A stretch of 64,000 nt of DNA from Candidatus Tayloriibacteriota bacterium (lineage in GTDB: Bacteria; Patescibacteriota; Minisyncoccia; Phycocordibacterales; PALSA-1337): contig JBAXUB010000003.1 in NCBI GenBank assembly GCA_037129895.1, forward strand, positions 2,699 to 66,698. Reading direction: 5' to 3'. The notes under the pieces are model-generated. The model was not told the DNA's origin. It did not search any database and saw only the letters and a list, made by a program, of their open reading frames with translations. Position numbers and translations under genes: made by a program. This document shows positions 4,163-12,640 of the stretch, in pieces. Within the stretch, counting starts at the first letter, position 1; each line of letters starts with the position of its first letter.

Positions 4163-4606
4163 ATGAAAAATAAGATATATACGATCATATTGGCCGCCAT
4201 AGTTCTAAGCTCGTTCGCACAGTTTTCAATACTGACCGTTAGTGCAGCAAATGAGTCTGTTGATATAACAAAATCGAGTTTTCAGTTATCTATCTGTGAT
4301 GGACCGAGGCCACCAGGTGGAGGTACTAGTGGCACGGTGTATTGTGATTTTACTGGACTTATCTTGACGGTACAGCGGTTCATCAATGTCGGTATAGCCA
4401 TCGGTGTATTCGTAGCACTCGGTAGTTTCTGTTATATCGGCTATCTATATATGACTGGAACACCGGGCAATATCACCAAGGCAAAATCCATTTTCCCAAA
4501 AATCTTTTTTGGGTTTATAATAATGCTCACGGCATGGTTCATCGTTTATCAGATGCTCTCATGGCTAGGTGCCAGTTCGACCTATACTACTTTATTGGGG
4601 AAATAA
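4163..4606 (+). CDS. Small signal-peptide/2-TM protein, paralog 1 (VirB2/TrbC-pilin-like topology)
   Basis: A signal peptide is followed by two hydrophobic helices. It ends with the shared C-terminal motif 'IIMLTAWFIV', which reads '..LS.WGLVNIL' in the other paralogs. Confidence 0.4.
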   Translation: MKNKIYTIILAAIVLSSFAQFSILTVSAANESVDITKSSFQLSICDGPRPPGGGTSGTVYCDFTGLILTVQRFINVGIAIGVFVALGSFCYIGYLYMTGTPGNITKAKSIFPKIFFGFIIMLTAWFIVYQMLSWLGASSTYTTLLGK

Positions 4607-4616
4607 TATAAATATA

Positions 4617-5087
4617 ATGAAATTATCAAACATAATTGGGTATAAGATTGGAACTAGCGTTATGATCGTTCTCATGTTAGTTGTGGTACTCAGTGTACCA
4701 GTGACTTTAGTCATGGCGCAGATCAATATTGGTGGGAATGCTATTACTGCCCCCGTCAGTGGGAATGGTAAAGCAGGAACTCTCGATAATCCATTAAAAG
4801 GAGTGAGTTCACTCGGCGATCTAGTAAAAACTGGTCTACAAGTCTTTACATACATAGCGGTTCTCATAGGTGTTGTCATGATAGTGATAGTTGGTCTCAA
4901 ATATATCCTCGCACGTGGTAAACCAGAGGAGATGAAGAAAGCCAGCCAATGGCTACTGTATATCGTGATAGGGCTAGCGATCGTTATTGGTTCTAGGATC
5001 GCCGTATCTATCGTTATCAACACACTGGAGTCCTCTGGTGCGGTTGATCCGAAAGTTATACAAAGTGCAAAGAATGCCAATCAATAA
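4617..5087 (+). CDS. Small signal-peptide/2-TM protein, paralog 2
   Basis: Start chosen at ATG 4617 (MKLSNIIG) to avoid overlapping the previous gene. It has a hydrophobic N-terminus and the helix-loop-helix body 'VFTYIAVLIGVVMIVIVGLKYIL...LYIVIGLAIVIG'. Confidence 0.4.
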   Translation: MKLSNIIGYKIGTSVMIVLMLVVVLSVPVTLVMAQINIGGNAITAPVSGNGKAGTLDNPLKGVSSLGDLVKTGLQVFTYIAVLIGVVMIVIVGLKYILARGKPEEMKKASQWLLYIVIGLAIVIGSRIAVSIVINTLESSGAVDPKVIQSAKNANQ

Positions 5088-5107
5088 TTTATTAATTATT
5101 CAATAAT

Positions 5108-5605
5108 ATGACAAAAAAACATTTAAAATATACACTTTCAATATTGATCGCCACTACGCCACTGTTAGCTTTTGCTGCGACGGGCGGTACTTTGAAGACT
5201 TTGATATCATCGATCATCAATTACCTCAATTGGGCACTAGTCCTCATGATGGCTCTGGCTATCGTGTATTTCACTTGGAATGTGATCAAGTATTATGTTA
5301 GGACCAATGAAGATAGGAAAGAGGGAAATACTTATGTTATGTATAGTATCATCGGTTTTTTCGTAATATTGTCTTTCTGGGGATTGGTAAATATTCTGCA
5401 AAATAGCTTCGGTTTGAGTAATCAAGGGAATACTCCAGGTAGTTGGGCTTCATTCTCCAATATTTTCCCTGGAGGAGGGTCGTCAGCTTCTGGTGGGGTA
5501 AGTGATCCAGCCTCGCAGACTCTATTTGATTACCAGGCTGGTGGCAGTTCGATTACTTGTCCGAGTGGAACGGATTACAATGCGACGACTGAGACTTGTA
5601 TGTAG
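5108..5605 (+). CDS. Small signal-peptide/2-TM protein, paralog 3
   Basis: Signal peptide 'LLAFAATGG' and the conserved motif 'FFVILSFWGLVNILQNSFG' are present, with a Gly/Ser-rich tail. Confidence 0.4.
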   Translation: MTKKHLKYTLSILIATTPLLAFAATGGTLKTLISSIINYLNWALVLMMALAIVYFTWNVIKYYVRTNEDRKEGNTYVMYSIIGFFVILSFWGLVNILQNSFGLSNQGNTPGSWASFSNIFPGGGSSASGGVSDPASQTLFDYQAGGSSITCPSGTDYNATTETCM

Positions 5606-5716
5606 TATAACCTATCAATATCCACAGGGGGGTGCATTTAATAGTCTGTAAAGTAGTGTATAATTATAACCAACTAATATATTCGTATTAGCATTTATTA
5701 ACAAATTAACAATAAT

Positions 5717-6076
5717 ATGAAAAAAATCATCGCAGTAGCATTGGCATTAACACCTGTTGTAGCATTTGCTCAATTGACACAGATCACCGACGTCAATAGT
5801 TTGTCTAGTAGACTCGTGAGTTTGGGTAATACATTTACATATTTGTTGATAGCTCTAGCAGTTATCTTCATTATCTGGAACGTGGTTATGTCCTTGATCA
5901 AAGGTAATGATCCTGCAGCTCGTGGTGCAGCAGCATCCTCTATATTGTATGGTATAGTCGGTCTATTCGTAATACTATCTATCTGGGGCCTAGTGAATAT
6001 CCTAGTCAATACATTCGGTACGAGACCACCTGCTGCAACAGTCCCTCAGGCACAGAATGCTCCAATAGTTTACTAA
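5717..6076 (+). CDS. Small signal-peptide/2-TM protein, paralog 4 (best VirB2-like topology)
   Basis: Layout is signal 'VVAFAQ', helix 1, loop 'KGNDPAARGAAAS', then helix 2 'LFVILSIWGLVNILVNTFG'. Confidence 0.45.
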   Translation: MKKIIAVALALTPVVAFAQLTQITDVNSLSSRLVSLGNTFTYLLIALAVIFIIWNVVMSLIKGNDPAARGAAASSILYGIVGLFVILSIWGLVNILVNTFGTRPPAATVPQAQNAPIVY

Positions 6077-6091
6077 TAGTTAAACAATTCG

Positions 6092-6376
6092 ATGTCATCC
6101 GTAACTCAGCTCATGGCCGCACTGGACGCTGCTACATTCGGCAAAGCAGTTGACCCGATTATATCAAATATATTGAATCCGATAATGGCGCTAATATTTG
6201 CTGTTGCTCTCGTCGTGTTCGTTTACGGAGTTTTGACATATGTTTGGGGTTCGCAAGATGGTGATGCAAGGACCCTAGCGAAGAATAGTATGGTTGGAGG
6301 AATCATCGGTATGTTCATCATGTTGTCAGCGTGGGGCATAGTCAATCTGATAGCAAATACTGTTAAATCTCTGTAA
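6092..6376 (+). CDS. Small 2-TM protein, paralog 5
   Basis: It carries the conserved motif 'MFIMLSAWGIVNLIANTV'. Confidence 0.4.
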   Translation: MSSVTQLMAALDAATFGKAVDPIISNILNPIMALIFAVALVVFVYGVLTYVWGSQDGDARTLAKNSMVGGIIGMFIMLSAWGIVNLIANTVKSL

Positions 6377-6447: not shown

Positions 6448-6463
6448 CGTTTCTTGCAAAGAA

Positions 6464-7009
6464 CTATGACGAGGGTACATCCCTCGTTTCTGATATCGCC
6501 CAGGCAACAGGTGCCTGAGACAACTTTTGGTTTGGTTCGATACTCACCTCGATCGTATTGAACCCGACTGTGTTCTCGAGGTGAGACTTTTCCCGCCAAT
6601 TGCGCGGGTAAAGTTTGAAAATACGACTATCGTCGTGATCAAACCTCACCAACCAATGGACATCGTCGACAAGTATGTTCATGTCGACCCTTCTCCCAAA
6701 GACGCTCACGCCCTGCCATTTTCCTGGCACGGCAATGATGACGCCTGATTCGTGAGCTGTGGTGTAGCTCTGCTTCACCATTTCGCTCATCTTCGGGTTA
6801 AGTCCGTCACCCGATCCGGAAGATCCGGAGGGGGATGACCTCGACACGAATATGATGAGGATGATGAGTGGTGCCAGCAATAGTGCCCACTTCTGTGTTT
6901 TACTCATTTTCTGTTTGGGCGGGATCACCATTGCTGGTGTTACCGCTTTTGTCGTCGCTGCTGCGGGTGCAGCAGGTGTTGTTGTCGTCGCTGCTGTTGG
7001 TTTCGCCAT
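6464..7009 (-). CDS. Hypothetical membrane-anchored protein (first gene of the GC-rich island)
   Basis: It has an Ala/Thr/Pro-rich N-terminus and a TM helix 'WALLLAPLIILIIFV'. GC is ~52% against ~38% in the flanks. Confidence 0.45.
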   Translation of the reverse strand: MAKPTAATTTTPAAPAAATTKAVTPAMVIPPKQKMSKTQKWALLLAPLIILIIFVSRSSPSGSSGSGDGLNPKMSEMVKQSYTTAHESGVIIAVPGKWQGVSVFGRRVDMNILVDDVHWLVRFDHDDSRIFKLYPRNWREKSHLENTVGFNTIEVSIEPNQKLSQAPVAWAISETRDVPSS

Positions 7010-7033
7010 ATTAATCCTTCTATTTTTTTTGTT

Positions 7034-8062
7034 CTATTTTTTGCCTGCCATGACTATTCCCGCGCCGTCCCCAAGGCCCAATGCTGTTAGACCTTCCTGG
7101 GGAATGCCCCGGTATTCGTTCTCTTTTACTTCAATTGTTCGAGTCGTCTTTGGATCGACAGCTGCTGCTGCGGTCCTCGACGCCTCGTTTACGCCCATAT
7201 CAGGGTTCGCTTCCCTGAGTGCTCTGATCCCTTCGTTGATCATACCGATCGTCGACTTGGACGAGTAGATCGTCCTTGACTCTGGTGTGAGGTCAAAGTT
7301 TTCCAACGTTGGATTTTTGATCTCGCACCCGATCTGGTCTTCGAAAGCGGAGATATTTTCTTCGCCATCAAAAAGTGTTGAAACCCATTTGACTACTGAG
7401 CTCTTGTAATAGAGCAGAGTCTCAACCGAGTTCAATCCTGCCAGATCTGATAGTCGAGCAGCGACTAGCGCCAATATCCAGGCCCGAATCTCCGCGTTTT
7501 GATAACGCAGTGATTTGCTGAGCGCATCCGTGTCGCTCTTACGATTGTAGAGTATCAGGATGTTCGCAAACATCACGTATCCATCACGAGTGGTGAATGT
7601 CACCTGATTCTCGCTACCAAATCGGGTCGTTATGATTTCGTGCTTTTGGAAGTTGATTGGCTCTTCCTGAAGCCTAGAACTCCACATTGTGAAGTGGAAT
7701 CCTTGGAGGTAAACCAGGATCTTTCCCGGTCTGAAATAGTCCAGGTAGACCTTGGCTTCCCGAGCGTTCACTGTCGTCCACATCGCTGGGGTGTAGATGA
7801 TCACGAACGCTGCCACTCCGATCAGCGGAATTCCGATCGTCATCATCGACGATTTGTCGATGAATGATAGACCAATCGACAAGGCAACGAAAAGTATCAT
7901 TGCTGTCAATAGGTTGAGTATCAGCGATTCATAATCAAAGTTATTGATCACCGCTACCGCCAACGCTTTATCCGTGTTCACCCTGGCTCCCGGTTTCGGT
8001 GGGAGGGAGGTAATTTTCGGTCTCCGCAACGCGGGCGGAGCTTCTTTAATTTTCTTACTCAT
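7034..8062 (-). CDS. SPFH/band-7 (stomatin/HflK-like) membrane protein
   Basis: N-terminal TM helices are followed by the segment '...HEIITTRFGSENQVTFTTRDGYVMFANILILYNRKSDTDAL...', which is the SPFH pattern. Confidence 0.4.
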   Translation of the reverse strand: MSKKIKEAPPALRRPKITSLPPKPGARVNTDKALAVAVINNFDYESLILNLLTAMILFVALSIGLSFIDKSSMMTIGIPLIGVAAFVIIYTPAMWTTVNAREAKVYLDYFRPGKILVYLQGFHFTMWSSRLQEEPINFQKHEIITTRFGSENQVTFTTRDGYVMFANILILYNRKSDTDALSKSLRYQNAEIRAWILALVAARLSDLAGLNSVETLLYYKSSVVKWVSTLFDGEENISAFEDQIGCEIKNPTLENFDLTPESRTIYSSKSTIGMINEGIRALREANPDMGVNEASRTAAAAVDPKTTRTIEVKENEYRGIPQEGLTALGLGDGAGIVMAGKK

Positions 8063-8200
8063 AATTTCATTTCTTTCTGTCTTTGATCTTCAGCCATAAT
8101 TGTGGCCTCGGATCGGTTTGTCTATTATTCAGCTGTCAAACAGTATCTTTTGGACACTGGCAAGAGTCATCCGACCCTCGCAAACAGGCTTTTAAATCTG
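8063..8200. repeat. Promoter/5'UTR repeat, copy 1 (about 85% identical to 9435-9576)
   Basis: Direct comparison shows it contains TTGACA on the minus strand and the palindrome 'agccataattgtggcc'. It ends at the start codon of the 7034-8062 gene. Confidence 0.6.
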
Positions 8201-8317
8201 GTTCAATTGTAGCATAAAAAAAGGGCAAAGTCAAGGCAAATTGAGTATCGAAATAGGGCTATATAGCAAGTCATATTATTGGCTATTTTTGGTCATAAAT
8301 ATAAAGAAAACCCCTCA

Positions 8318-8352
8318 TAGACATTGCTGTCAGTGAGGGGTTTTTTGAAGGA
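8318..8352. terminator. Intrinsic terminator (bidirectional)
   Basis: 'cccctcatagacattgctgtcagtgagggg' plus a T-run lies downstream of the 8364-9434(-) gene. Confidence 0.5.
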
Positions 8353-8363
8353 ACTGTTCGGTG

Positions 8364-9434
8364 CTACCTGCACCGGCCACCACCACCGTGGTGGTATGTG
8401 GCAAACGGTAGTGGGGGACCGCCACGATATCCGCCGCCGTACGATGGGGCACAATAGCTGCCACTATAGTAGCTACCACCCCCGTATCCGACACTAATGA
8501 TCGGCCTGTACGTTTGATACACGTACGGCTGCTGGTAAACAACCGTCGGCGCTGTTCGATAGTAGTATGAGGACTGCTCAACCGGAGCAGGTTCCCGATA
8601 CTCCTGCACCTGTTTCTCAACAGGTTGCGCCGGCGGTGACCACGTTGAAGTGGTCTTCGTCGCACAAGTCGGCTGCCTCACTGTTACGGCCTGTGTGCTG
8701 ACAAGGGTGTTGCCCTTGTACACAGGCCCGTAGTTTACGGTTATGGAGCAGTTCGTGCTGCTCACAATGTTGAAGCAGTTCGACATGGCCATGGTATTGG
8801 CCACTGAAGAGCTCATCCCACTCTGACTCTGAGCGAGGCCAGCTCTGGCGCGAGCGATTTCGCCCTCGTAATCGCTGAGCTTTTTGCTCTCAGCGTTCAA
8901 GTCGAGCTGCTCTTTATGGGCAGCGTCGTACCCTTTTGTCAACTTCCTGTATTCTGCAGCTGTCGCTGCGGCTGTTGACGGCGCGTCCACGGTGGCCTTC
9001 TGGTCGCGGTGTGTCCACCACCACCAGAGACCGATGAGGCTGAGAATCGCCACGATTAACGTGGTAATCTTAAGCCACTTCCACTTGTCGCCCGAAGCGG
9101 GCGGCGTGGTGGTGACGTTTACTGTCGTCGATCCACCTGTACCACCGGAAGCTGCAGCTGCTGCAGCGGCGGCCGCGGCTGCTGCTTTAGCGGCGCTCCC
9201 TGCGCGCGGCTTCCGAGCCTTCTTGGGTGCGGCTGGCTGCGGCGGCGGAGTGACTGGTGGCGGCGTCCCCGTTGTTGGGGGAGTTGCCGTCTTCTTCGCC
9301 TTGGCAGTTTTAGGGGCGGCAGGTGCCGTACCCGAAGTTGCTGCTGACGCTGTTGTTGCTGCAGGTGCTGTATTTACAGAACCTGGATTTGCGGGCGGTT
9401 GCCCAACCGGCGTTTTTGTCGTTGCCATATTCAT
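8364..9434 (-). CDS. Low-complexity Pro/Ala/Thr-rich membrane protein with Gly/Tyr-rich C-terminus
   Basis: It contains the TM helix 'ITTLIVAILSLIGLWWWW' and a coiled-coil segment. GC is ~62%. The plus-strand ORF 8884-9471 is its antisense shadow. Confidence 0.5.
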   Translation of the reverse strand: MNMATTKTPVGQPPANPGSVNTAPAATTASAATSGTAPAAPKTAKAKKTATPPTTGTPPPVTPPPQPAAPKKARKPRAGSAAKAAAAAAAAAAAASGGTGGSTTVNVTTTPPASGDKWKWLKITTLIVAILSLIGLWWWWTHRDQKATVDAPSTAAATAAEYRKLTKGYDAAHKEQLDLNAESKKLSDYEGEIARARAGLAQSQSGMSSSVANTMAMSNCFNIVSSTNCSITVNYGPVYKGNTLVSTQAVTVRQPTCATKTTSTWSPPAQPVEKQVQEYREPAPVEQSSYYYRTAPTVVYQQPYVYQTYRPIISVGYGGGSYYSGSYCAPSYGGGYRGGPPLPFATYHHGGGGRCR

Positions 9435-9576
9435 ATTTCTTTTTCTTTCCGTCTTTGATCCTCGGCCATAATTATGGCCTCGGATCGGTTTCTATATTCA
9501 GCTGTCAAACAGTATCTTTTGGACACTGGCAAGAGTCATCCGACCCTTGCAAACAAGCTTCAAATTTCTGGTGGTA
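9435..9576. repeat. Promoter/5'UTR repeat, copy 2
   Basis: It contains TTGACA on the minus strand and the perfect 16-bp palindrome 'ggccataattatggcc' at 9464-9479. It ends at the start codon of the 8364-9434 gene. Confidence 0.6.
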
Positions 9577-9647
9577 TTATATCACAAAGGAGTAATTTGT
9601 CAAGGTAAACGTATTTCGGCAATGATCGGGTGAACATGAGTCAAATA

Positions 9648-9673
9648 GCGTTATACCATATATGGTATAACGC
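9648..9673. repeat. 26-bp perfect palindrome gcgttataccata|tatggtataacgc
   Basis: Read directly. It lies ~40 bp from the first tRNA-Leu 3'-end repeat. Confidence 0.6.
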
Positions 9674-9713
9674 CTATAAGCTATGTTGTGCGCCCCAGGA
9701 TAACATATTTGCG

Positions 9714-9731
9714 GTGCCGGGGAGAGGACTC
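9714..9731. repeat. Direct repeat of the tRNA-Leu 3' end (18 bp, gtgccggggagaggactc), copy distal to the tRNA
   Basis: It is identical to 10024-10041, which is the 3' terminal 17 nt of tRNA-Leu plus 1 nt. Confidence 0.6.
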
Positions 9732-9855
9732 TTTCCCTACGGGAACGGTACAGTCTTCGTATTTCTCCTCGTCTACGACTCGTAGAAATATACTCAGACT
9801 TTTCGAGTCTTTGGACGCGAACCAGTCAACTGGTTCGCTGGTGGTATGCATATCA

Positions 9856-9873
9856 GTGCCGGGGAGAGGACTC
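9856..9873. repeat. Direct repeat of the tRNA-Leu 3' end (18 bp), middle copy
   Basis: It is identical to 9714-9731 and 10024-10041. Confidence 0.6.
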
Positions 9874-10024
9874 CCCCGCGACTCTCGGCTGACCAGTCAG
9901 CCTCGGTCTGGGCACCGGCTCGCGGCTCGGTGCGCTCACCTCGCACGCTCCGCCGTTCTCGTCCTACCCCATGTCACAATGATGCTCCATTCGGACTGCA
10001 TTTAGCAGTCCTCGTGGATCATTG

Positions 10025-10106
10025 TGCCGGGGAGAGGACTCGAACCTCCATGAATTGCTTCGCGTGGTCCTAAGCCACGTGCGTCTACCAATTTCGCCAC
10101 CCCGGC
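10025..10106 (-). tRNA. tRNA-Leu (anticodon TAG), type II with long variable arm
   Basis: I folded it by hand. Acceptor GCCGGGG pairs with CCCCGGC, anticodon arm is CGTGG-CTTAGGA-CCACG, and T arm is GGAGG-TTCGAGT-CCTCT. Length is 82 nt. Confidence 0.8.
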
Positions 10107-10271
10107 GTAGATATAACATAGCATGTTTATGTGGGATTGACAAAATGGTATAAACAATGTTATAGTACACACGGCTAAGTTCTCTTACAATGTGATTTGA
10201 ACCAAGTGCCAAAAGTAAACAACCGGGCCTTTATGCCCACGGCTGAATAAGCCAAAAAAGAAAGGATAGTT

Positions 10272-11702
10272 ATGTTAAGTGAAAAATTCGTGCTGACGGT
10301 AAGTCGGCTAGTCATGCCGATCGGATTCGCTGTCGAAAATTTGGTCGCACGTATGCTACTCATGTGGTATGCGTTTGATAGGTTCGTCGGGGTAGATAAG
10401 GCCCCTATCATGTTCTCTCAGGGGGAAGTGATCGGAGTGGATGCTACGTTCGACGCAGATGGTGAGGTGCCTATCGGGTGCGGACAAGGAAGGTTCGGGA
10501 CCGAGCATCCGGCCATCTCGGTGGCCAAAGAGCTCGGAATCCAGGACAACGCGGAGTTGTTACCGCTACTAGGATTTCTGAAAAATGGGACAGGTAGTGA
10601 GTTGCGACTGCAAGTGCTGTTCAAGTCCGTTCGTCGAAAGGTGAACGGTGACCCGAAGACATGCATTCAGGTTATGAGCATCTTCATTGATGCCATAATC
10701 ATGAATGCCCGGTACAATCCGGTCGCATGTCAGAAGGAACTGTCGCTGGAAGAGGTCTTTCAAGGTCTCATCAAGCGCAAGAAGTTCACTGACAAACGAG
10801 CCTGCGCTCATCTGCAAAAGCAGATCGAACTCAGTCTTGCGAACAGTAAAGATGTGACTGAGTTAAATCACGTCCTTATGGCACTGTTCCGTCGTCGTGA
10901 CAAGACTGTGACGACAGCGGATGTGCCTCTCTACAAGGAGGCTGACATCCTCGAGTGGATGGAGTTCGTCCTCACAGCCTATTACCAGCAGCAGATCGAC
11001 TTTGGCAAGGCGCTGGAGGAGGTTCGAGATTTGGAACCTGTCATGGTTCCTACACTGATCGGTAAGAGCAGATTCAAGATGAAGCTCATCACCGTATCGA
11101 GTGAAAATGATCAGGTGGCAAAAGCTGCCAGATCGCTCGGTGCGGACATAGTCTTGCACAGAGAGCCAATGTCTCTACGTCGTCACATAAGTTTTGGTCC
11201 TGTCCGTGGGTTATCTAGCCAGAACCTGGCGAAAATGATCGAGTGGATGGAGGTGCCGAAAAAAATGAAAAGTCGAGTAAAGTGGGCTGATCTGGGAAGC
11301 TTCGACAAGAGTCGCGGGATCACATGGTGGCACGTGGACCGCAACGGAAATCTGCATAATGGTACCAAGTACCGTCCGCAGCCGGAATCGATGATCGCAG
11401 ATTCTTCGATCGTTGATGCGATCCAGCACGCCTTCCATTTCGAGGAACTGAAGTTCTGGTGCAATCATCCGGATCGCAAGATCAGGATCTCGGCCAGAAC
11501 GGAAGGGAAGAAACAGCTCGCCCTTCCTCAGCCCAACGGAAACAATGGGAACGGGAATGGACATCACGAGGTAGCCGGGATCAATGCGGTGGCAACTGCA
11601 TTCGACAAAGCCTTGGAATCCAAGGCAGTCAGGGACGTTGTCAAAGACGTCAAGCCCAAGCGCAGGGTTAGTAAAGGGGACAAGGTTGTCAGCAGGGCAT
11701 AG
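10272..11702 (+). CDS. Hypothetical protein (GC-rich island; no recognisable domain)
   Basis: A 476-aa ORF at ~52% GC. I see no tyrosine-recombinase R..HxxR..Y signature. Confidence 0.45.
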   Translation: MLSEKFVLTVSRLVMPIGFAVENLVARMLLMWYAFDRFVGVDKAPIMFSQGEVIGVDATFDADGEVPIGCGQGRFGTEHPAISVAKELGIQDNAELLPLLGFLKNGTGSELRLQVLFKSVRRKVNGDPKTCIQVMSIFIDAIIMNARYNPVACQKELSLEEVFQGLIKRKKFTDKRACAHLQKQIELSLANSKDVTELNHVLMALFRRRDKTVTTADVPLYKEADILEWMEFVLTAYYQQQIDFGKALEEVRDLEPVMVPTLIGKSRFKMKLITVSSENDQVAKAARSLGADIVLHREPMSLRRHISFGPVRGLSSQNLAKMIEWMEVPKKMKSRVKWADLGSFDKSRGITWWHVDRNGNLHNGTKYRPQPESMIADSSIVDAIQHAFHFEELKFWCNHPDRKIRISARTEGKKQLALPQPNGNNGNGNGHHEVAGINAVATAFDKALESKAVRDVVKDVKPKRRVSKGDKVVSRA

Positions 11703-11780
11703 TACAAATCAAGAACAGGGGGTTCCAGACAACTGGGCCCCCTTTCCTTTTATCTCAACATCCAATAGTTGAATCTGGTA

Positions 11781-11809
11781 TTGTCTAAATCACAAAAACC
11801 TGTTATATT
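11781..11809 (+). promoter_or_regulatory. Sigma70-like promoter for tRNA-Lys
   Basis: TTGTCT is followed by 17 nt and then TATATT, ending 9 nt before the tRNA 5' end. Confidence 0.45.
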
Positions 11810-11818
11810 TTCTCGTAC

Positions 11819-11891
11819 GCGCCCATAGCTCAGCTGGTAGAGCAGATCCCTCTTAAGGATAAGGTCGTAGGTTCGATCCCTACTGGGCGCA
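11819..11891 (+). tRNA. tRNA-Lys (anticodon CTT)
   Basis: Acceptor GCGCCCA pairs with TGGGCGC, D arm is GCTC..GAGC, anticodon loop is CTCTTAA, and T arm is GTAGG-TTCGATC-CCTAC. Length is 73 nt. Confidence 0.8.
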
Positions 11892-12020
11892 CAGAAATGA
11901 AAGTATTATATTAGTAGCAGGTGCATTTATGCACCTGCGTGTGGGGAGCGACTGTCGGAACAATACCGAGCCTAGTCAGGCGAGGTTGTCATTTCATCGG
12001 TCACGTGCAATAATTACTTT

Positions 12021-12308
12021 ATGTCAATAGCAGAAATACAGGAGAAAATTAGTCCAGTTCTCAAGTCATACGGTGTTACTTATGCTGGTATTTTTGGTTC
12101 AGTTTCGCGAGGCGAGGATCTTCCAGGTAGTGATATTGATATACTGATCAAGCTCGGCAAACCAATGGGCATGTTTTCTTATATGAGCCTGATTGAGGCT
12201 ATTCAGGACATATTGGGACGCAAAGTAGATATAGTTACAGAACAGAGTTTAAGTAAGTTTGTTAGACCTTATGTCATGCCTGAGTTAAAGACTATTTATG
12301 AAGGATGA
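12021..12308 (+). CDS. MNT-type nucleotidyltransferase antitoxin (MntA-like)
   Basis: It carries the minimal NTase motif 'GIFGSVSRGEDLPGSDIDILI'. It overlaps the downstream HEPN gene by 11 nt. Confidence 0.7.
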   Translation: MSIAEIQEKISPVLKSYGVTYAGIFGSVSRGEDLPGSDIDILIKLGKPMGMFSYMSLIEAIQDILGRKVDIVTEQSLSKFVRPYVMPELKTIYEG

Positions 12309-12621
12309 GAAAGTCTACATAGAACAGATGTTGGATTCGGTAGCAAAGATCGAAGATTTTACTAGTGGTATGAACAAGGAAGGTTTTATGAATGATTCCA
12401 AAACTCAGAGTGCCGTCATTATGCAGTTGGCAGTGATCGGCGAAATAGTAAAGAAGGTCTCTCCGAAGACGAAAGAAACTAGTGACATACCATGGAAAGA
12501 GATTGCAGGTTTCAGAGATCGAGCTATTCATCATTATTTTGGTATGGACCTGAATGTGATCTGGGATACTGTAGTTTTGGATATTCCAATTCTGAAGGCA
12601 GAACTCAAAAAGATACCATAA
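12298..12621 (+). CDS. HEPN/DUF86 toxin (HepT-like)
   Basis: The Rx4-6H motif 'RDRAIHH' is present and it is paired with the upstream MNT gene. Confidence 0.7.
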   Translation: MKDEKVYIEQMLDSVAKIEDFTSGMNKEGFMNDSKTQSAVIMQLAVIGEIVKKVSPKTKETSDIPWKEIAGFRDRAIHHYFGMDLNVIWDTVVLDIPILKAELKKIP

Positions 12622-12640
12622 AGCGTTGTTTCATATTTAG

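What the first reader, a model, noticed from the sequence alone, without database searches (positions are those of the whole stretch)
6450..11800. GC-rich (~50-62%) island with tRNA-Leu 3'-end direct repeats and duplicated promoters
Base composition jumps from ~38% to 50-62% GC across four genes: a membrane protein, an SPFH-like protein, a Pro/Ala/Thr-rich low-complexity membrane protein and a 476-aa unknown. The island contains tRNA-Leu(TAG), whose terminal 17 nt (+1) recur twice more as exact 18-bp direct repeats 150 and 310 bp beyond its 3' end. That is the classic attL/attR signature of integrase-mediated insertion at a tRNA 3' end, apparently serial. A 26-bp perfect palindrome sits next to the outermost repeat. 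Two of the island genes are driven by ~140-bp duplicated promoter/5'UTR segments that carry TTGACA and a 16-bp palindrome (ggccataattatggcc) just upstream of the RBS, which could be an operator or an RNA hairpin. No integrase is visible, so this may be a decayed or satellite-type element.
Basis: seen in the sequence. Interest (0 to 1): 0.65.

Follow-up and report, generated by a model that had tools for sequence, protein, structure and literature searches.

The report
Structured elements copying tRNA 3' ends
The repeated tRNA-Leu ends are not scars of an integrated island: they are the tails of two small folded elements from a family that sits behind many tRNA genes in Patescibacteria, which I could not find described, and the GC-rich genes beside them are an old, conserved gene module.

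Summary
GC3 of the four genes is 0.57-0.62 against 0.38 in the rest of the window. There are three exact 18-nt copies of the tRNA-Leu(TAG) 3' end, a 26-bp palindrome and a duplicated promoter plus leader.

The repeats do not bracket the island. The island is syntenic in three related Taylorbacteria genomes, and its four-gene module lies next to tRNA-Leu(TAG) in distant Patescibacteria. There it keeps GC3 of about 0.40-0.73 while host genes run from 0.29 to 0.74. No integrase, phage or plasmid relative was found.

The repeats are the 3' ends of two head-to-tail elements in the tRNA trailer: B-type (9857-10024) and C-type (9715-9856). Both have strong covariation support. Homologous units follow at least ten kinds of tRNA across Patescibacteria. 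Each ends in a copy of its own tRNA from T-loop position 57 to the discriminator. Many also carry internal segments complementary to that copy.

Best reading: these are tRNA-derived structured RNAs, co-transcribed with the tRNA, given a tRNA-like end, and copied from tRNA to tRNA. Rfam has no match, and my literature searches found no description.

The parts
10024..10106 (-). tRNA-Leu(TAG). CCA is not encoded. Its 3' end (discriminator at 10025) is the first copy of the repeat.
   Evidence: ARAGORN; Rfam tRNA at 56 bits.
9857..10024 (-). B-type tRNA-trailer element, 168 nt. It starts right after the tRNA discriminator and ends in the 17-mer GAGTCCTCTCCCCGGCA (9857-9873). The internal segment GGGGUAGGAC is complementary to that 3' end.
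   Evidence: MFE -79.4 kcal/mol, z = -3.98. Conserved in L001, L008, L010, L023, L014 and, behind tRNA-Lys, in L009 and L001. 25 of 53 predicted pairs carry compensatory changes. Scores 193 bits with model R2. No Rfam match.
9715..9856 (-). C-type tRNA-trailer element, 142 nt, subtype C2 (only a 6-bp helix with its 3' copy). It ends in the same 17-mer (9715-9731).
   Evidence: Scores 131 bits with model R1. On the 21-unit alignment A1, 98.6% of cells are paired against 28-47% when partners are slid, and 18 of 28 pairs have double changes. Absent from L001 and L008.
9714..9731 (.). Third copy of the 18-nt repeat (3' end of unit C).
9856..9873 (.). Second copy of the 18-nt repeat (3' end of unit B).
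9648..9673 (.). 26-bp perfect palindrome, followed on the minus strand by UAUUUGA. Probably the end of the tRNA-Leu/unit transcript, or an operator.
   Evidence: Sequence. 100% conserved in L001. Not called by the terminator scan.
9435..9603 (-). Consensus promoter (TTGACA, 16-nt spacer, TG-n-TATAAT, 9603-9576) plus a leader of about 140 nt for the 356-aa gene. The leader contains a 37-nt invariant block and the hairpin with the 16-bp palindrome (9464-9479).
8063..8234 (-). Second copy of the promoter (8234-8206) and leader, in front of the 342-aa gene.
8364..9434 (-). 356-aa Pro/Ala/Thr-rich single-pass membrane protein with a coiled-coil stretch. GC3 0.60.
   Evidence: Weak similarity of its L008 orthologue to the L023 313-aa protein (E = 6e-4).
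7034..8062 (-). 342-aa membrane protein. It is the positional counterpart of SPFH/Band_7 proteins, but family membership is not shown. GC3 0.58. Fast-evolving: 50% identical to its L001 orthologue, 68% to L008.
6464..7009 (-). 181-aa membrane protein. GC3 0.57.
   Evidence: BLASTP E = 3e-6 to the L023 179-aa protein.
10272..11702 (+). 476-aa protein of an uncharacterised family (167 clusters in the representative library). The window copy lacks the family's conserved His/Asp motifs. GC3 0.62. Promoter at 10137-10166.
11819..11892 (+). tRNA-Lys(CTT), usual neighbour of tRNA-Leu(TAG) in Patescibacteria.
11893..11988 (+). 5' remnant (about 96 nt) of a B-type unit behind tRNA-Lys. Its 3' part, including the tRNA-Lys copy, is replaced by the MNT/HepT cassette (12021-12621).
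   Evidence: L001 has the intact unit at 11983-12146 (82 bits). Homology runs over window 11819-11988 and resumes at 12632. MNT/HepT by Pfam.

Best explanation
Two separate things lie side by side here.

(1) The four GC-rich genes. They are an old Patescibacteria-wide module: a 476-aa protein of an uncharacterised family, a Pro/Ala/Thr-rich membrane protein, an SPFH-like membrane protein and a small membrane protein. The module is linked to tRNA-Leu(TAG)/tRNA-Lys(CTT). It is driven by near-consensus promoters and an anciently duplicated leader. It keeps a middling composition (gene GC 0.42-0.59, GC3 about 0.40-0.73) whether the host genome is AT-rich or GC-rich. The cause is unresolved. I lean towards exchange of alleles between lineages at a fixed locus rather than codon selection.

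(2) The three 18-nt repeats. They are the tRNA's own 3' end plus the 3' ends of two small structured elements (B-type and C-type) lying head to tail in the tRNA trailer. These belong to a superfamily of tRNA-derived elements. A member starts right after a tRNA and carries a conserved hairpin and a three-way-junction module. It ends in a copy of that tRNA from T-loop nucleotide 57 to the discriminator. Many members also carry 5' segments complementary to that copy, so the element forms an acceptor/T-arm-like helix.

Proposed mechanism.
- Shown: position, orientation, conserved structure, matching ends, and distribution over many tRNAs.
- Inferred: the units are transcribed with the tRNA, and the tRNA-like end lets RNase Z, RNase P and the CCA enzyme release them as stable tRNA-like RNAs.
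- Inferred: they spread by being copied onto the 3' end of other tRNA genes, possibly by template switching at the shared GA(G/A)TCC of the T-loop. That would duplicate the target's 3' end.
For: Island is conserved in place:
- Same gene order (gyrA ... four or five T4SS pilin genes, three minus-strand genes, tRNA-Leu, 476-aa gene, tRNA-Lys, type IV pilus genes) in L001/L003 and L008.
- GC3 is raised in the orthologues too: L001 0.51-0.63 against about 0.39; L008 0.40-0.50 against about 0.30.
- L066 has tRNA-Leu(TAG) followed directly by 449-, 603-, 374- and 151-aa genes. The 449-aa protein is a 476-family member (E = 1e-36). Module GC3 there is 0.51-0.56 while the host nusB gene has 0.74. There is no repeat.
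- Saccharibacteria loci L010, L018 and L023 carry SPFH (Band_7, E = 1e-11) and PAT-rich genes at the same tRNAs.

Units:
- 17 species-representative genomes from several Patescibacteria classes have tRNA-Leu(TAG) followed by a 140-170-nt unit ending in the same 17-mer. No second tRNA is called there.
- C-type units also follow tRNA-Ile(GAT), Ile(TAT), Ala(TGC), Arg(TCG), Leu(GAG), His(GTG) and Val(GAC). B-type units follow Lys(CTT). In every case but the Val unit the unit ends in that tRNA's own 3' end.
- Covariation: C-type 98.6% paired, 106 double-change cells against 4-20 in slid controls, 0 of 500 shuffles reach the observed value. B-type 25 of 53 pairs compensatory.
- Anti-strands track the local tRNA. 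In C1 units the own-tRNA duplex is -19 to -32 kcal/mol and ranks first or second of 8.
- The sense strand folds better than the antisense strand: C-type -4.4 kcal/mol (p = 0.003); B-type -11 kcal/mol, 7 of 7.
- Terminator hairpins or the next gene's promoter follow the last copy.
- Modules do not cluster by tRNA type; the window's unit C is closest to a tRNA-Ile unit at 85%.
- Copy number and presence vary between relatives.
- No Rfam family matches.
Against: - No expression or processing data exist; everything at the RNA level is inferred.
- G.U pairs are as rare as A.C in the predicted helices (5 against 4 of 586 cells; 14 against 13). This is unusual for RNA and leaves room for a single-stranded-DNA structure.
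- Subtype C2, which includes the window's own unit C, has only a 6-bp helix with its 3' copy and folds no better in sense than in antisense. The minihelix idea therefore does not explain why C2 units still carry the full tRNA end.
- Units are dispensable. L006 and L066 lack them, and the window's tRNA-Lys unit is truncated.
- The copying mechanism is conjecture, and no enzyme is identified.
- For the module, both C- and G-ending codons rise. That argues against plain translational selection, but horizontal exchange is supported only by one incongruent gene.
Confidence: 0.5

Rival explanations
1. First reader's model. The repeats are attL/attR-type scars left by serial integrase-mediated insertions at the tRNA-Leu 3' end, and the GC-rich genes are the decayed or satellite element.
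For: - Direct repeats of a tRNA from the T-loop to the 3' end are what T-loop-targeting integrases leave (for example phage Ms6 at tRNA-Ala, PMC1762012).
- The composition anomaly is real.
- A genuine scar of this kind exists nearby in a relative: L066 has a 1.8-kb low-GC insert between tRNA-Lys and a 43-nt copy of its 3' part.
Against: - The repeats do not bracket the island, and there is no copy near 6450.
- The island is syntenic in relatives, and in L066 it lies next to the tRNA with no repeat.
- The inter-repeat DNA is a fixed-size element with covarying helices, homologous behind at least ten kinds of tRNA.
- No integrase recurs in 116 neighbouring ORFs from 30 loci, and none appears among the Pfam families reported for the window. 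For 36 of the window's ORFs, however, only the best 25 of 55 matched families were listed.
- The 17-mer is absent from 2.9 million viral contigs.
- No phage or plasmid hits.
Confidence: 0.06
2. The units are miniature non-autonomous DNA mobile elements. A transposase or recombinase encoded elsewhere acts on folded single-stranded DNA, or the units spread by replication template switching. The hairpins are DNA recognition structures, the tRNA-end copy is a target duplication, and any RNA is incidental.
For: - G.U is not enriched over A.C in the helices.
- Tandem arrays and presence/absence differences between relatives.
- Modules do not follow tRNA type.
- The left edge of the duplication is fixed at nucleotide 57, while the right edge varies by 0-16 nt past the tRNA.
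- C2 units keep invariant 5' parts whatever the tRNA.
- Units are dispensable and can be disrupted.
Against: - No transposase or recombinase is linked to the units.
- Orientation is always that of the tRNA, with terminators after the unit.
- The sense strand folds significantly better.
- Conserved GNRA-like loops and tandem G-A internal loops are RNA-type motifs.
- The same unit type sits at the same tRNA in Taylorbacteria and Saccharibacteria, which suggests long vertical retention.
- C1 anti-strands match the tRNA, which a target duplication alone does not produce.
Confidence: 0.22
3. The units are guide RNAs: a scaffold followed by a 3' guide of 17-20 nt that matches the tRNA gene just after GGTTC, which would act as a PAM/TAM-like motif. 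They would serve an RNA-guided nuclease or transposition system that homes to tRNA genes, or be relics of such a system.
For: - The layout (scaffold, then about 17-20 nt identical to the tRNA 3' end, starting sharply after the universal GGTTC) resembles TnpB/Cas12-type RNAs; this comparison rests on my own knowledge.
- It also resembles the delocalized crRNAs that home type V-K and I-F CASTs to sites next to tRNA genes (PMC11656645).
- Retargeting to many tRNAs while the scaffold stays conserved.
Against: - No Cas12, TnpB or Tns gene appears among the Pfam families reported for the window, and none recurs beside units.
- In B and C1 units the supposed guide is base-paired to internal complementary segments.
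- No transposon ends.
- No Rfam match to known guide or omega RNAs.
Confidence: 0.07
4. For the composition alone. The four genes are GC3-rich because they are very highly expressed envelope genes under codon selection, not because of foreign origin or exchange.
For: - Near-consensus promoters, 12/12 and 11/12.
- Strong preference for C- over T-ending codons in two-fold boxes (TAC 0.70 against 0.25, AAC 0.58 against 0.24, ATC 0.64 against 0.34).
- The module stays in a narrower, middling GC3 range in both AT-rich and GC-rich hosts.
Against: - G-ending codons not expected to be optimal also rise (GGG, CGG, CCG, ACG, TCG).
- The pilin genes in the window show no shift.
- No ribosomal or other reference genes are in the window, so the idea could not be tested.
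Confidence: 0.3

Closest known systems
Partial tRNA duplications (attL/attR) left by tyrosine integrases that recombine in the T-loop, e.g. mycobacteriophage Ms6 at tRNA-Ala (PMC1762012); tandem accretion of defective elements
   Same: A direct repeat identical to the tRNA from the T-loop to the 3' end. The tRNA stays intact. Repeats can pile up in tandem.
   Different: Only 125-150 nt lie between the repeats, of fixed architecture with covarying helices. No integrase is present. Homologous units sit behind at least ten kinds of tRNA, each with the matching end. Many units also carry the complement of the repeat. The GC island lies outside the repeats. L066 shows a real scar for contrast: a 43-nt repeat starting in the anticodon loop, flanking a 1.8-kb low-GC insert.
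tRNA-like processing elements: plant mitochondrial t-elements (PMC1920247) and MALAT1/NEAT1 mascRNA-type tRNA-like RNAs (PMC9777231)
   Same: An acceptor/T-arm-like helix next to another transcript. The proposed release is by RNase P and RNase Z.
   Different: These units are bacterial and always directly behind the tRNA whose 3' strand they copy exactly. A three-way-junction module replaces the T-loop and a single hairpin replaces the D and anticodon arms. Processing has not been tested.
Guide RNAs that direct elements to tRNA genes: delocalized crRNAs of type V-K / I-F CRISPR-associated transposons (PMC11656645); TnpB omega RNAs (my own knowledge)
   Same: A structured scaffold followed by a short stretch identical to the end of a tRNA gene. 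The scaffold is conserved while the target-matching part changes.
   Different: No effector or transposase genes and no transposon ends. The matching stretch is internally base-paired in many members.
tRNA-derived short non-autonomous repeats (SINEs, MITEs)
   Same: Short, without an ORF, dispersed, apparently descended from a tRNA (acceptor strand, then AGC as at tRNA positions 9-11, then T-stem).
   Different: Found only at tRNA 3' ends in tRNA orientation. No typical terminal inverted repeats, poly(A) tail or fixed-length target duplication. No retroelement partner is known in this phylum.
SPFH (Band_7) membrane-scaffold operons with small membrane partners
   Same: The module contains a two-TM protein with strands followed by long helices, with a small membrane protein beside it. 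Saccharibacteria counterparts hit Band_7.
   Different: The window protein itself does not reach Pfam significance. The other two module members (476-aa family, PAT-rich protein) are not part of known SPFH operons.

Membership tests
Integrase-mediated genomic island at a tRNA gene | Direct repeats of the tRNA 3' part bracket the foreign segment. | tested here: not met
   All three copies lie within 9714-10041. No further copy exists in 64 kb, even allowing 2 mismatches. The GC-rich genes lie on both sides of the tRNA.
Integrase-mediated genomic island at a tRNA gene | Integrase or recombinase gene in or next to the element. | tested here: not met
   No integrase family among the Pfam results for the window ORFs, but one search listed only the best 25 of 55 families for 36 ORFs. 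None recurs among 116 ORFs next to units in 30 loci.
Integrase-mediated genomic island at a tRNA gene | Relatives with an unoccupied site. | tested here: not met
   L001/L003 and L008 all carry the island in the same place. L066 has the module beside the tRNA without repeats.
Integrase-mediated genomic island at a tRNA gene | Atypical composition. | tested here: met
   GC3 z-scores 3.4-4.1. The offset is also present in orthologues and has the opposite sign in L066.
Any described RNA family (Rfam 15) | Covariance-model match. | tested here: not met
   Only tRNAs reach gathering score in the window. Nothing credible at E <= 10 in 9400-10300.
Conserved structured RNA (generic) | Compensatory base changes that keep the helices across homologues. 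| tested here: met
   C-type: 18 of 28 pairs, 98.6% paired, 0 of 500 shuffles reach the observed value, slid controls 28-47%. B-type: 25 of 53 pairs.
Conserved structured RNA (generic) | Strand asymmetry (G.U enriched over A.C; sense strand folds better than antisense). | tested here: inconclusive
   G.U is about equal to A.C. The sense MFE is nevertheless lower: C-type p = 0.003, B-type 7 of 7.
tRNA-like processing element (t-element / mascRNA type) | Acceptor-plus-T-stem-like coaxial helix ending in a discriminator. | tested here: inconclusive
   Met in C1 units and in the L009 tRNA-Lys unit. Window unit B forms 4+4 bp with an internal loop. Window unit C forms only 6 bp.
tRNA-like processing element (t-element / mascRNA type) | Cleavage by RNase P / RNase Z and CCA addition. 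| not testable with these tools
   Needs RNA-end mapping or enzyme assays.
RNA-guided homing system (CAST delocalized crRNA, TnpB omega RNA) | Effector or transposase genes linked to the RNA. | tested here: not met
   None among the Pfam families reported for the window, and none among recurrent neighbours of units.
SPFH / Band_7 (342-aa protein) | Significant match to PF01145. | tested here: not met
   No hit for the window protein. E = 0.002 in one of five homologues. hhalign against the Saccharibacteria SPFH set gives probability 0.3%. The AF2 model is too poor (pLDDT 41) for a fold search. Only positional equivalence and an NCBI name on one homologue support membership.

The most novel reading that the evidence does not exclude
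The B- and C-type units represent a new class of tRNA-derived mobile element. It propagates only onto the 3' ends of tRNA genes, copies the target's T-loop-to-3' end, and in many cases also installs its complement. It would use a mechanism not yet known in bacteria: tRNA-templated, RNA-mediated or template-switch copying, possibly hijacking the tRNA processing machinery. Its ends may also serve as landing sites for small cassettes, such as the NYN gene in L001 and the MNT/HepT pair in the window.
Probability: 0.3. Interest if true: 0.9.

Novelty: new variant of a known kind. Interest (0 to 1): 0.72.

Why it matters
If the units are what they appear to be, ultra-small Patescibacteria carry a widespread set of tRNA-linked structured RNAs that I could not find described, in at least two families behind at least ten kinds of tRNA. 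These RNAs borrow the identity of the neighbouring tRNA's 3' end.

That opens testable questions:
- Are they cut out by RNase P and RNase Z, given CCA, or even charged?
- What do they do in genomes that have shed most regulators?
- How are both strands of the tRNA-matching helix renewed when a unit moves to a new tRNA?

There is also a practical point. Island- and prophage-finders that treat partial tRNA repeats as att sites will miscall these loci. The window shows how a real composition anomaly next to such repeats can suggest an integrated element that is not there.

The four-gene module, which keeps its own composition across hosts, is a second unexplained conserved feature of the phylum.

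Tried and rejected
- Second tRNA or tRNA intron. ARAGORN and Rfam call only one tRNA at each locus. The units are too short for group I introns, and the known Patescibacteria tRNA introns sit at position 35/36 (PMC13011429).
- Hammerhead or other self-cleaving ribozyme. By eye the C-type junction (CUGAG[C/U]A ... CGAA) lacks the essential G8, and Rfam finds nothing.
- Phage, plasmid or defence origin. PHROGs gives only a weak 'lipoprotein' hit. PADLOC, phage and plasmid BLAST searches find nothing. The 17-mer is absent from viral contigs.
- Protein function of the island genes. Pfam, NCBIfam and the PDB sequence search are negative.
- Structure prediction. AlphaFold models of the 476-aa and 342-aa proteins, built on shallow alignments, were poor (pLDDT 42.5 and 40.9), so I ran no fold search. 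In hindsight the 44-sequence alignment A5 should have been used for the 476-aa protein.
- MYG1/UPF0160-like reading. Canonical family members carry HxNPHLDE and GRFDEH motifs. The resemblance to MYG1 rests on memory only and was not confirmed by any search.
- Homology of the 342-aa family to the Saccharibacteria SPFH set. hhalign was negative.
- First duplex-energy test of anti-strand against tRNA end. It was confounded by the GC-rich Pa hairpin and was repeated on the flanking segments only.
- Translational selection as the cause of the GC3 shift. It could not be tested because the window holds no ribosomal or other reference genes.
- Literature. Seven searches found no description of such units. 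The library covers open-access papers only.

Full report
**Observation**

The window is from a Candidatus Taylorbacteria genome. The 342-aa protein is 100% identical to an NCBI MAG protein of that name. Background GC is about 40%.

- Between about 6500 and 11750, GC rises to 0.48-0.65 in 300-nt windows. No other kilobase of the 64 kb exceeds 0.455.
Their GC3 is 0.57-0.62 against 0.38 +/- 0.057 for 53 other ORFs, so the anomaly lies at synonymous sites and is not only due to Ala/Pro/Gly content.
- tRNA-Leu(TAG) is at 10024-10106 on the minus strand.
- The 18-mer GTGCCGGGGAGAGGACTC occurs exactly at 9714, 9856 and 10024 and nowhere else, even with two mismatches.
- The 26-bp palindrome is at 9648-9673. 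The duplicated segments are 8036-8191 and 9408-9560.

**The island is not what the repeats delimit**

All copies lie within 310 bp on one side of the tRNA, while the GC-rich genes lie on both sides. There is no copy at the left edge.

The 476-aa protein has only three close clusters in 5.8 billion proteins. Every contig that carries them and extends far enough shows the window's gene order: gyrA, methyltransferase, a solute-binding protein, four or five T4SS pilin genes, three minus-strand genes, tRNA-Leu(TAG), the 476-aa gene, tRNA-Lys(CTT), then type IV pilus genes.

Flanking proteins are 76-100% identical to L001 and 49-94% to L008. The island proteins are 50-89% and 58-68% identical. The island therefore predates these species.

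Its GC3 offset is present in each relative: L001 0.51-0.63 against about 0.39, and L008 0.40-0.50 against about 0.30.

**The module is much older than the genus**

A profile search of 1.84 billion representatives finds 167 clusters of the 476-aa family. None has a Pfam, NCBIfam or PDB match.

One member, in L066, lies directly downstream of tRNA-Leu(TAG). It is followed on the same strand by 603-, 374- and 151-aa genes, next to nusB and rnc.

Saccharibacteria loci L010, L018 and L023 have a PAT-rich membrane protein, an SPFH protein (Band_7, E = 1e-11 in L018) and a small membrane protein at the same tRNAs. There are significant but weak BLAST links to the window's 181-aa protein and to the L008 PAT-rich protein.

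Module genes have GC 0.42-0.59 and GC3 mostly 0.45-0.65 (range 0.40-0.73). This holds whether neighbouring host genes have GC3 of 0.30 (L008), 0.38 (window) or 0.74 (nusB in L066). In the window both C- and G-ending codons are raised.

The 342-aa gene is only 50% identical to its L001 orthologue but 68% to that of the more distant L008. That incongruence suggests allele exchange.

I cannot decide between exchange among lineages and selection. The window holds no highly expressed reference genes to test selection.

**What lies between the repeats**

On the tRNA strand, the 168 nt after the tRNA (unit B, 9857-10024) and the next 142 nt (unit C, 9715-9856) are hairpin-rich. Their MFE z-scores are -3.98 and -2.85.

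- Unit B is more conserved than the proteins. L008 keeps it nearly intact, with three compensatory pair changes in one hairpin (GGCUGA/UCAGCC to GCUCGA/UCGAGC).
- L001 has two tandem B copies. L003, from the same species, has one. The window has B then C.

**A phylum-wide family**

A scan of 185,579 species-representative genomes used the pattern 17-mer, 120-150 nt, 17-mer. It returned 17 contigs from Saccharibacteria, Magasanikbacteria, Parcubacteria/Paceibacterota and Taylorbacteria. In each locus where the gene lies within the fetched stretch (15 of 17), tRNA-Leu(TAG) is followed by one or more units, with no second tRNA called.

The units fall into two types, B and C.

A metagenome scan for a C-type core motif was decisive. 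True units sit directly behind tRNA-Ile(GAT), Ile(TAT), Ala(TGC), Arg(TCG), Leu(GAG), Leu(TAG), His(GTG) and Val(GAC). With one exception, each ends in a copy of that tRNA's own 3' end. The exception is the Val-linked unit in L046, which carries a Leu-type end.

- The copy always starts at T-loop nucleotide 57, just after GGTTC.
- It runs to the discriminator plus 0-16 nt of trailer.

B-type units follow tRNA-Lys(CTT) in a Saccharibacteria genome (L009) and in L001.

The window itself keeps the first 96 nt of that Lys unit (11893-11988). The rest, including the tRNA-Lys copy, has been replaced by a low-GC MNT/HepT toxin-antitoxin pair.

**Structure**

For 21 C-type units, RNAalifold predicts four helices:
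- a 9-bp hairpin 'Pa';
- P1, which pairs AGGACUC with the start of the tRNA copy;
- P2/P3, with a tandem G-A internal loop;
- P4, with GUAA or GUAG loops.

Of 28 pairs, 18 show compensatory double changes. With explicit controls, 98.6% of cells are paired against 28-47% when partners are slid. There are 106 double-change cells against 4-20 in the slid controls, and 0 of 500 shuffles reach the observed score.

For seven B-type units, 25 of 53 pairs show double changes.

Covariance models R1 and R2 find only unit C and unit B respectively in the window. Rfam has no match.

**The tRNA-matching helix**

In most C-type units (subtype C1) and in the L009 Lys unit, two segments flank hairpin Pa and are complementary to the tRNA copy:
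- Leu units: GUGCCGGGAG ... GAGAGGACUC
- Ile units: CGCGA ... CAGGACUC
- L061: ACGCG ... GAGGGACUC
- Lys unit: CGCCCA ... GGUAGGG

Duplex energies with the unit's own tRNA end are -19 to -32 kcal/mol and rank first or second of eight tRNA ends.

The layout reads: acceptor 5' strand, AGC, one hairpin, T-stem 5' strand, inserted module, T-stem and acceptor 3' strand. It looks like a tRNA whose T-loop holds a module of about 90 nt and whose D and anticodon arms are reduced to one hairpin.

Subtype C2 includes the window's unit C. It has an invariant 5' part (ACCAC[U/C]AGC ... GCGUCC[A/U]AGGACUC) behind four different tRNAs, and only a 6-bp P1.

Modules do not cluster by tRNA type. The window's unit C is closest to a tRNA-Ile unit at 85%. 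Units have therefore moved between tRNAs, and the tRNA-matching parts were renewed each time.

**RNA or DNA?**

For RNA:
- Units always have the tRNA's orientation and start at its end.
- They are followed by terminator hairpins or the next promoter.
- They contain RNA-type motifs.
- They fold better in sense than in antisense: C-type -4.4 kcal/mol (p = 0.003); B-type -11 kcal/mol, 7 of 7.

Against RNA:
- G.U pairs are no commoner than A.C.
- C2 units show no sense advantage.

No recombinase, transposase, reverse transcriptase or Cas/TnpB gene recurs near units. The recurrent neighbours are nusB-NUDIX, rnc and smc.

My best reading, at about 0.5, is a tRNA-derived structured RNA made from the tRNA transcript. 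Its tRNA-like end would let RNase Z, RNase P and the CCA enzyme release it. It would spread by copying onto other tRNA 3' ends, perhaps by template switching at the shared GA(G/A)TCC.

The rivals are a DNA-level miniature element (0.22), guide-RNA logic as in CAST homing crRNAs (PMC11656645) (0.07), and integrase scars (0.06).

L066 shows a true scar for contrast. A 43-nt copy of tRNA-Lys, starting in the anticodon loop, flanks a 1.8-kb low-GC insert.

**Promoters and palindromes**

The duplicated segments are a near-consensus promoter (9603-9576, 12/12; 8234-8206, 10/12) plus a leader of about 140 nt.

- Five copies from three genomes share an invariant 37-nt block, GCCAGTGTCCAAAAGATACTGTTTGACAGCTGAATA.
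- They share a predicted Y-shaped fold and a hairpin in front of the start codon.
- Covariation is thin, at two pairs.

The duplication is ancient and is not a sign of recent insertion. The 26-bp palindrome is conserved in L001 and probably ends the tRNA-Leu/unit transcript.

**Verdict**

The integrase-island reading is only partly supported: the composition anomaly and the serial additions at the tRNA end are real, but the att interpretation and the idea that the island is the inserted element are not.

The valuable result is the unit family. It is covariation-supported, phylum-wide, retargeted across tRNAs, absent from Rfam and not found in my literature searches.

Noticed in passing
window 11893-12631: The first ~96 nt after tRNA-Lys(CTT) are the 5' part of a B-type unit that is intact in L001 (11983-12146). 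In the window its 3' part and the tRNA-Lys copy are replaced by a low-GC MNT/HepT (nucleotidyltransferase / HEPN RNase) toxin-antitoxin pair. Homology to L001 resumes at 12632.
   Followed up: partly
L001 8710-9342 (minus strand): A low-GC (0.37) NYN-domain RNase gene sits just beyond the distal copy of the tRNA-Leu unit array and is absent from the window. Together with the MNT/HepT case, this makes two RNase-type cassettes that have landed at unit ends. That could be coincidence or a hotspot.
   Followed up: no
L066 1834-3775: A classical integration scar: a 1.8-kb low-GC segment (an HTH gene and two small ORFs, no integrase) between tRNA-Lys(CTT) and a 43-nt copy of its 3' part starting in the anticodon loop. 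It lies just upstream of tRNA-Leu(TAG).
   Followed up: partly
window 9435-9575 and 8063-8205 (minus strand): A conserved leader of about 140 nt with a 37-nt block that is invariant in five copies from three genomes, more conserved than the coding regions. It is a candidate cis-regulatory RNA or protein-binding site for the PAT-rich and SPFH-like genes. It has no Rfam match.
   Followed up: partly
window 10272-11702: Canonical members of the 476-aa family carry HxNPHLDE, GxGRFDEH, ECAATLVAK and NGSxT motifs, which look like a metal-dependent hydrolase. The Taylorbacteria copies have lost the His/Asp residues (VMPIGFAVEN, GRFGTEH), so they may be catalytically dead. The resemblance to MYG1/UPF0160 is from memory only.
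   Followed up: partly
window 7034-8062: The 342-aa gene is 50% identical to its orthologue in the close relative L001, but 68% identical to that in the more distant L008. DNA identity to L001 collapses exactly over this gene. This points to a hypervariable or exchanged allele.
   Followed up: partly
L054 2880-3345: A tandem array of variant units follows a T-arm-like sequence (GGTTCGAGTCCTGGTCGCGGAGCC) where ARAGORN calls no tRNA. It may be the 3' end of a tmRNA or of an atypical tRNA.
   Followed up: no
L046 2113-2477: tRNA-Val(GAC) is followed by two tandem C-type units. The first ends in the tRNA-Leu(TAG)-type 17-mer rather than the Val end, and the second runs off the contig end. This suggests rearrangement by recombination between units at different tRNA loci.
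   Followed up: no
alignments A1 and A6 (units from window and loci): Helices are almost purely Watson-Crick, with G.U below 1% of paired cells in the C-type alignment. This is unusually low for an RNA family.
   Followed up: partly
window 4163-6376: Five consecutive small membrane-protein genes lie directly left of the island. The two tested here (5717-6076, 6092-6376) match PF18895 T4SS_pilin. They vary considerably between relatives (49-91% identity).
   Followed up: no
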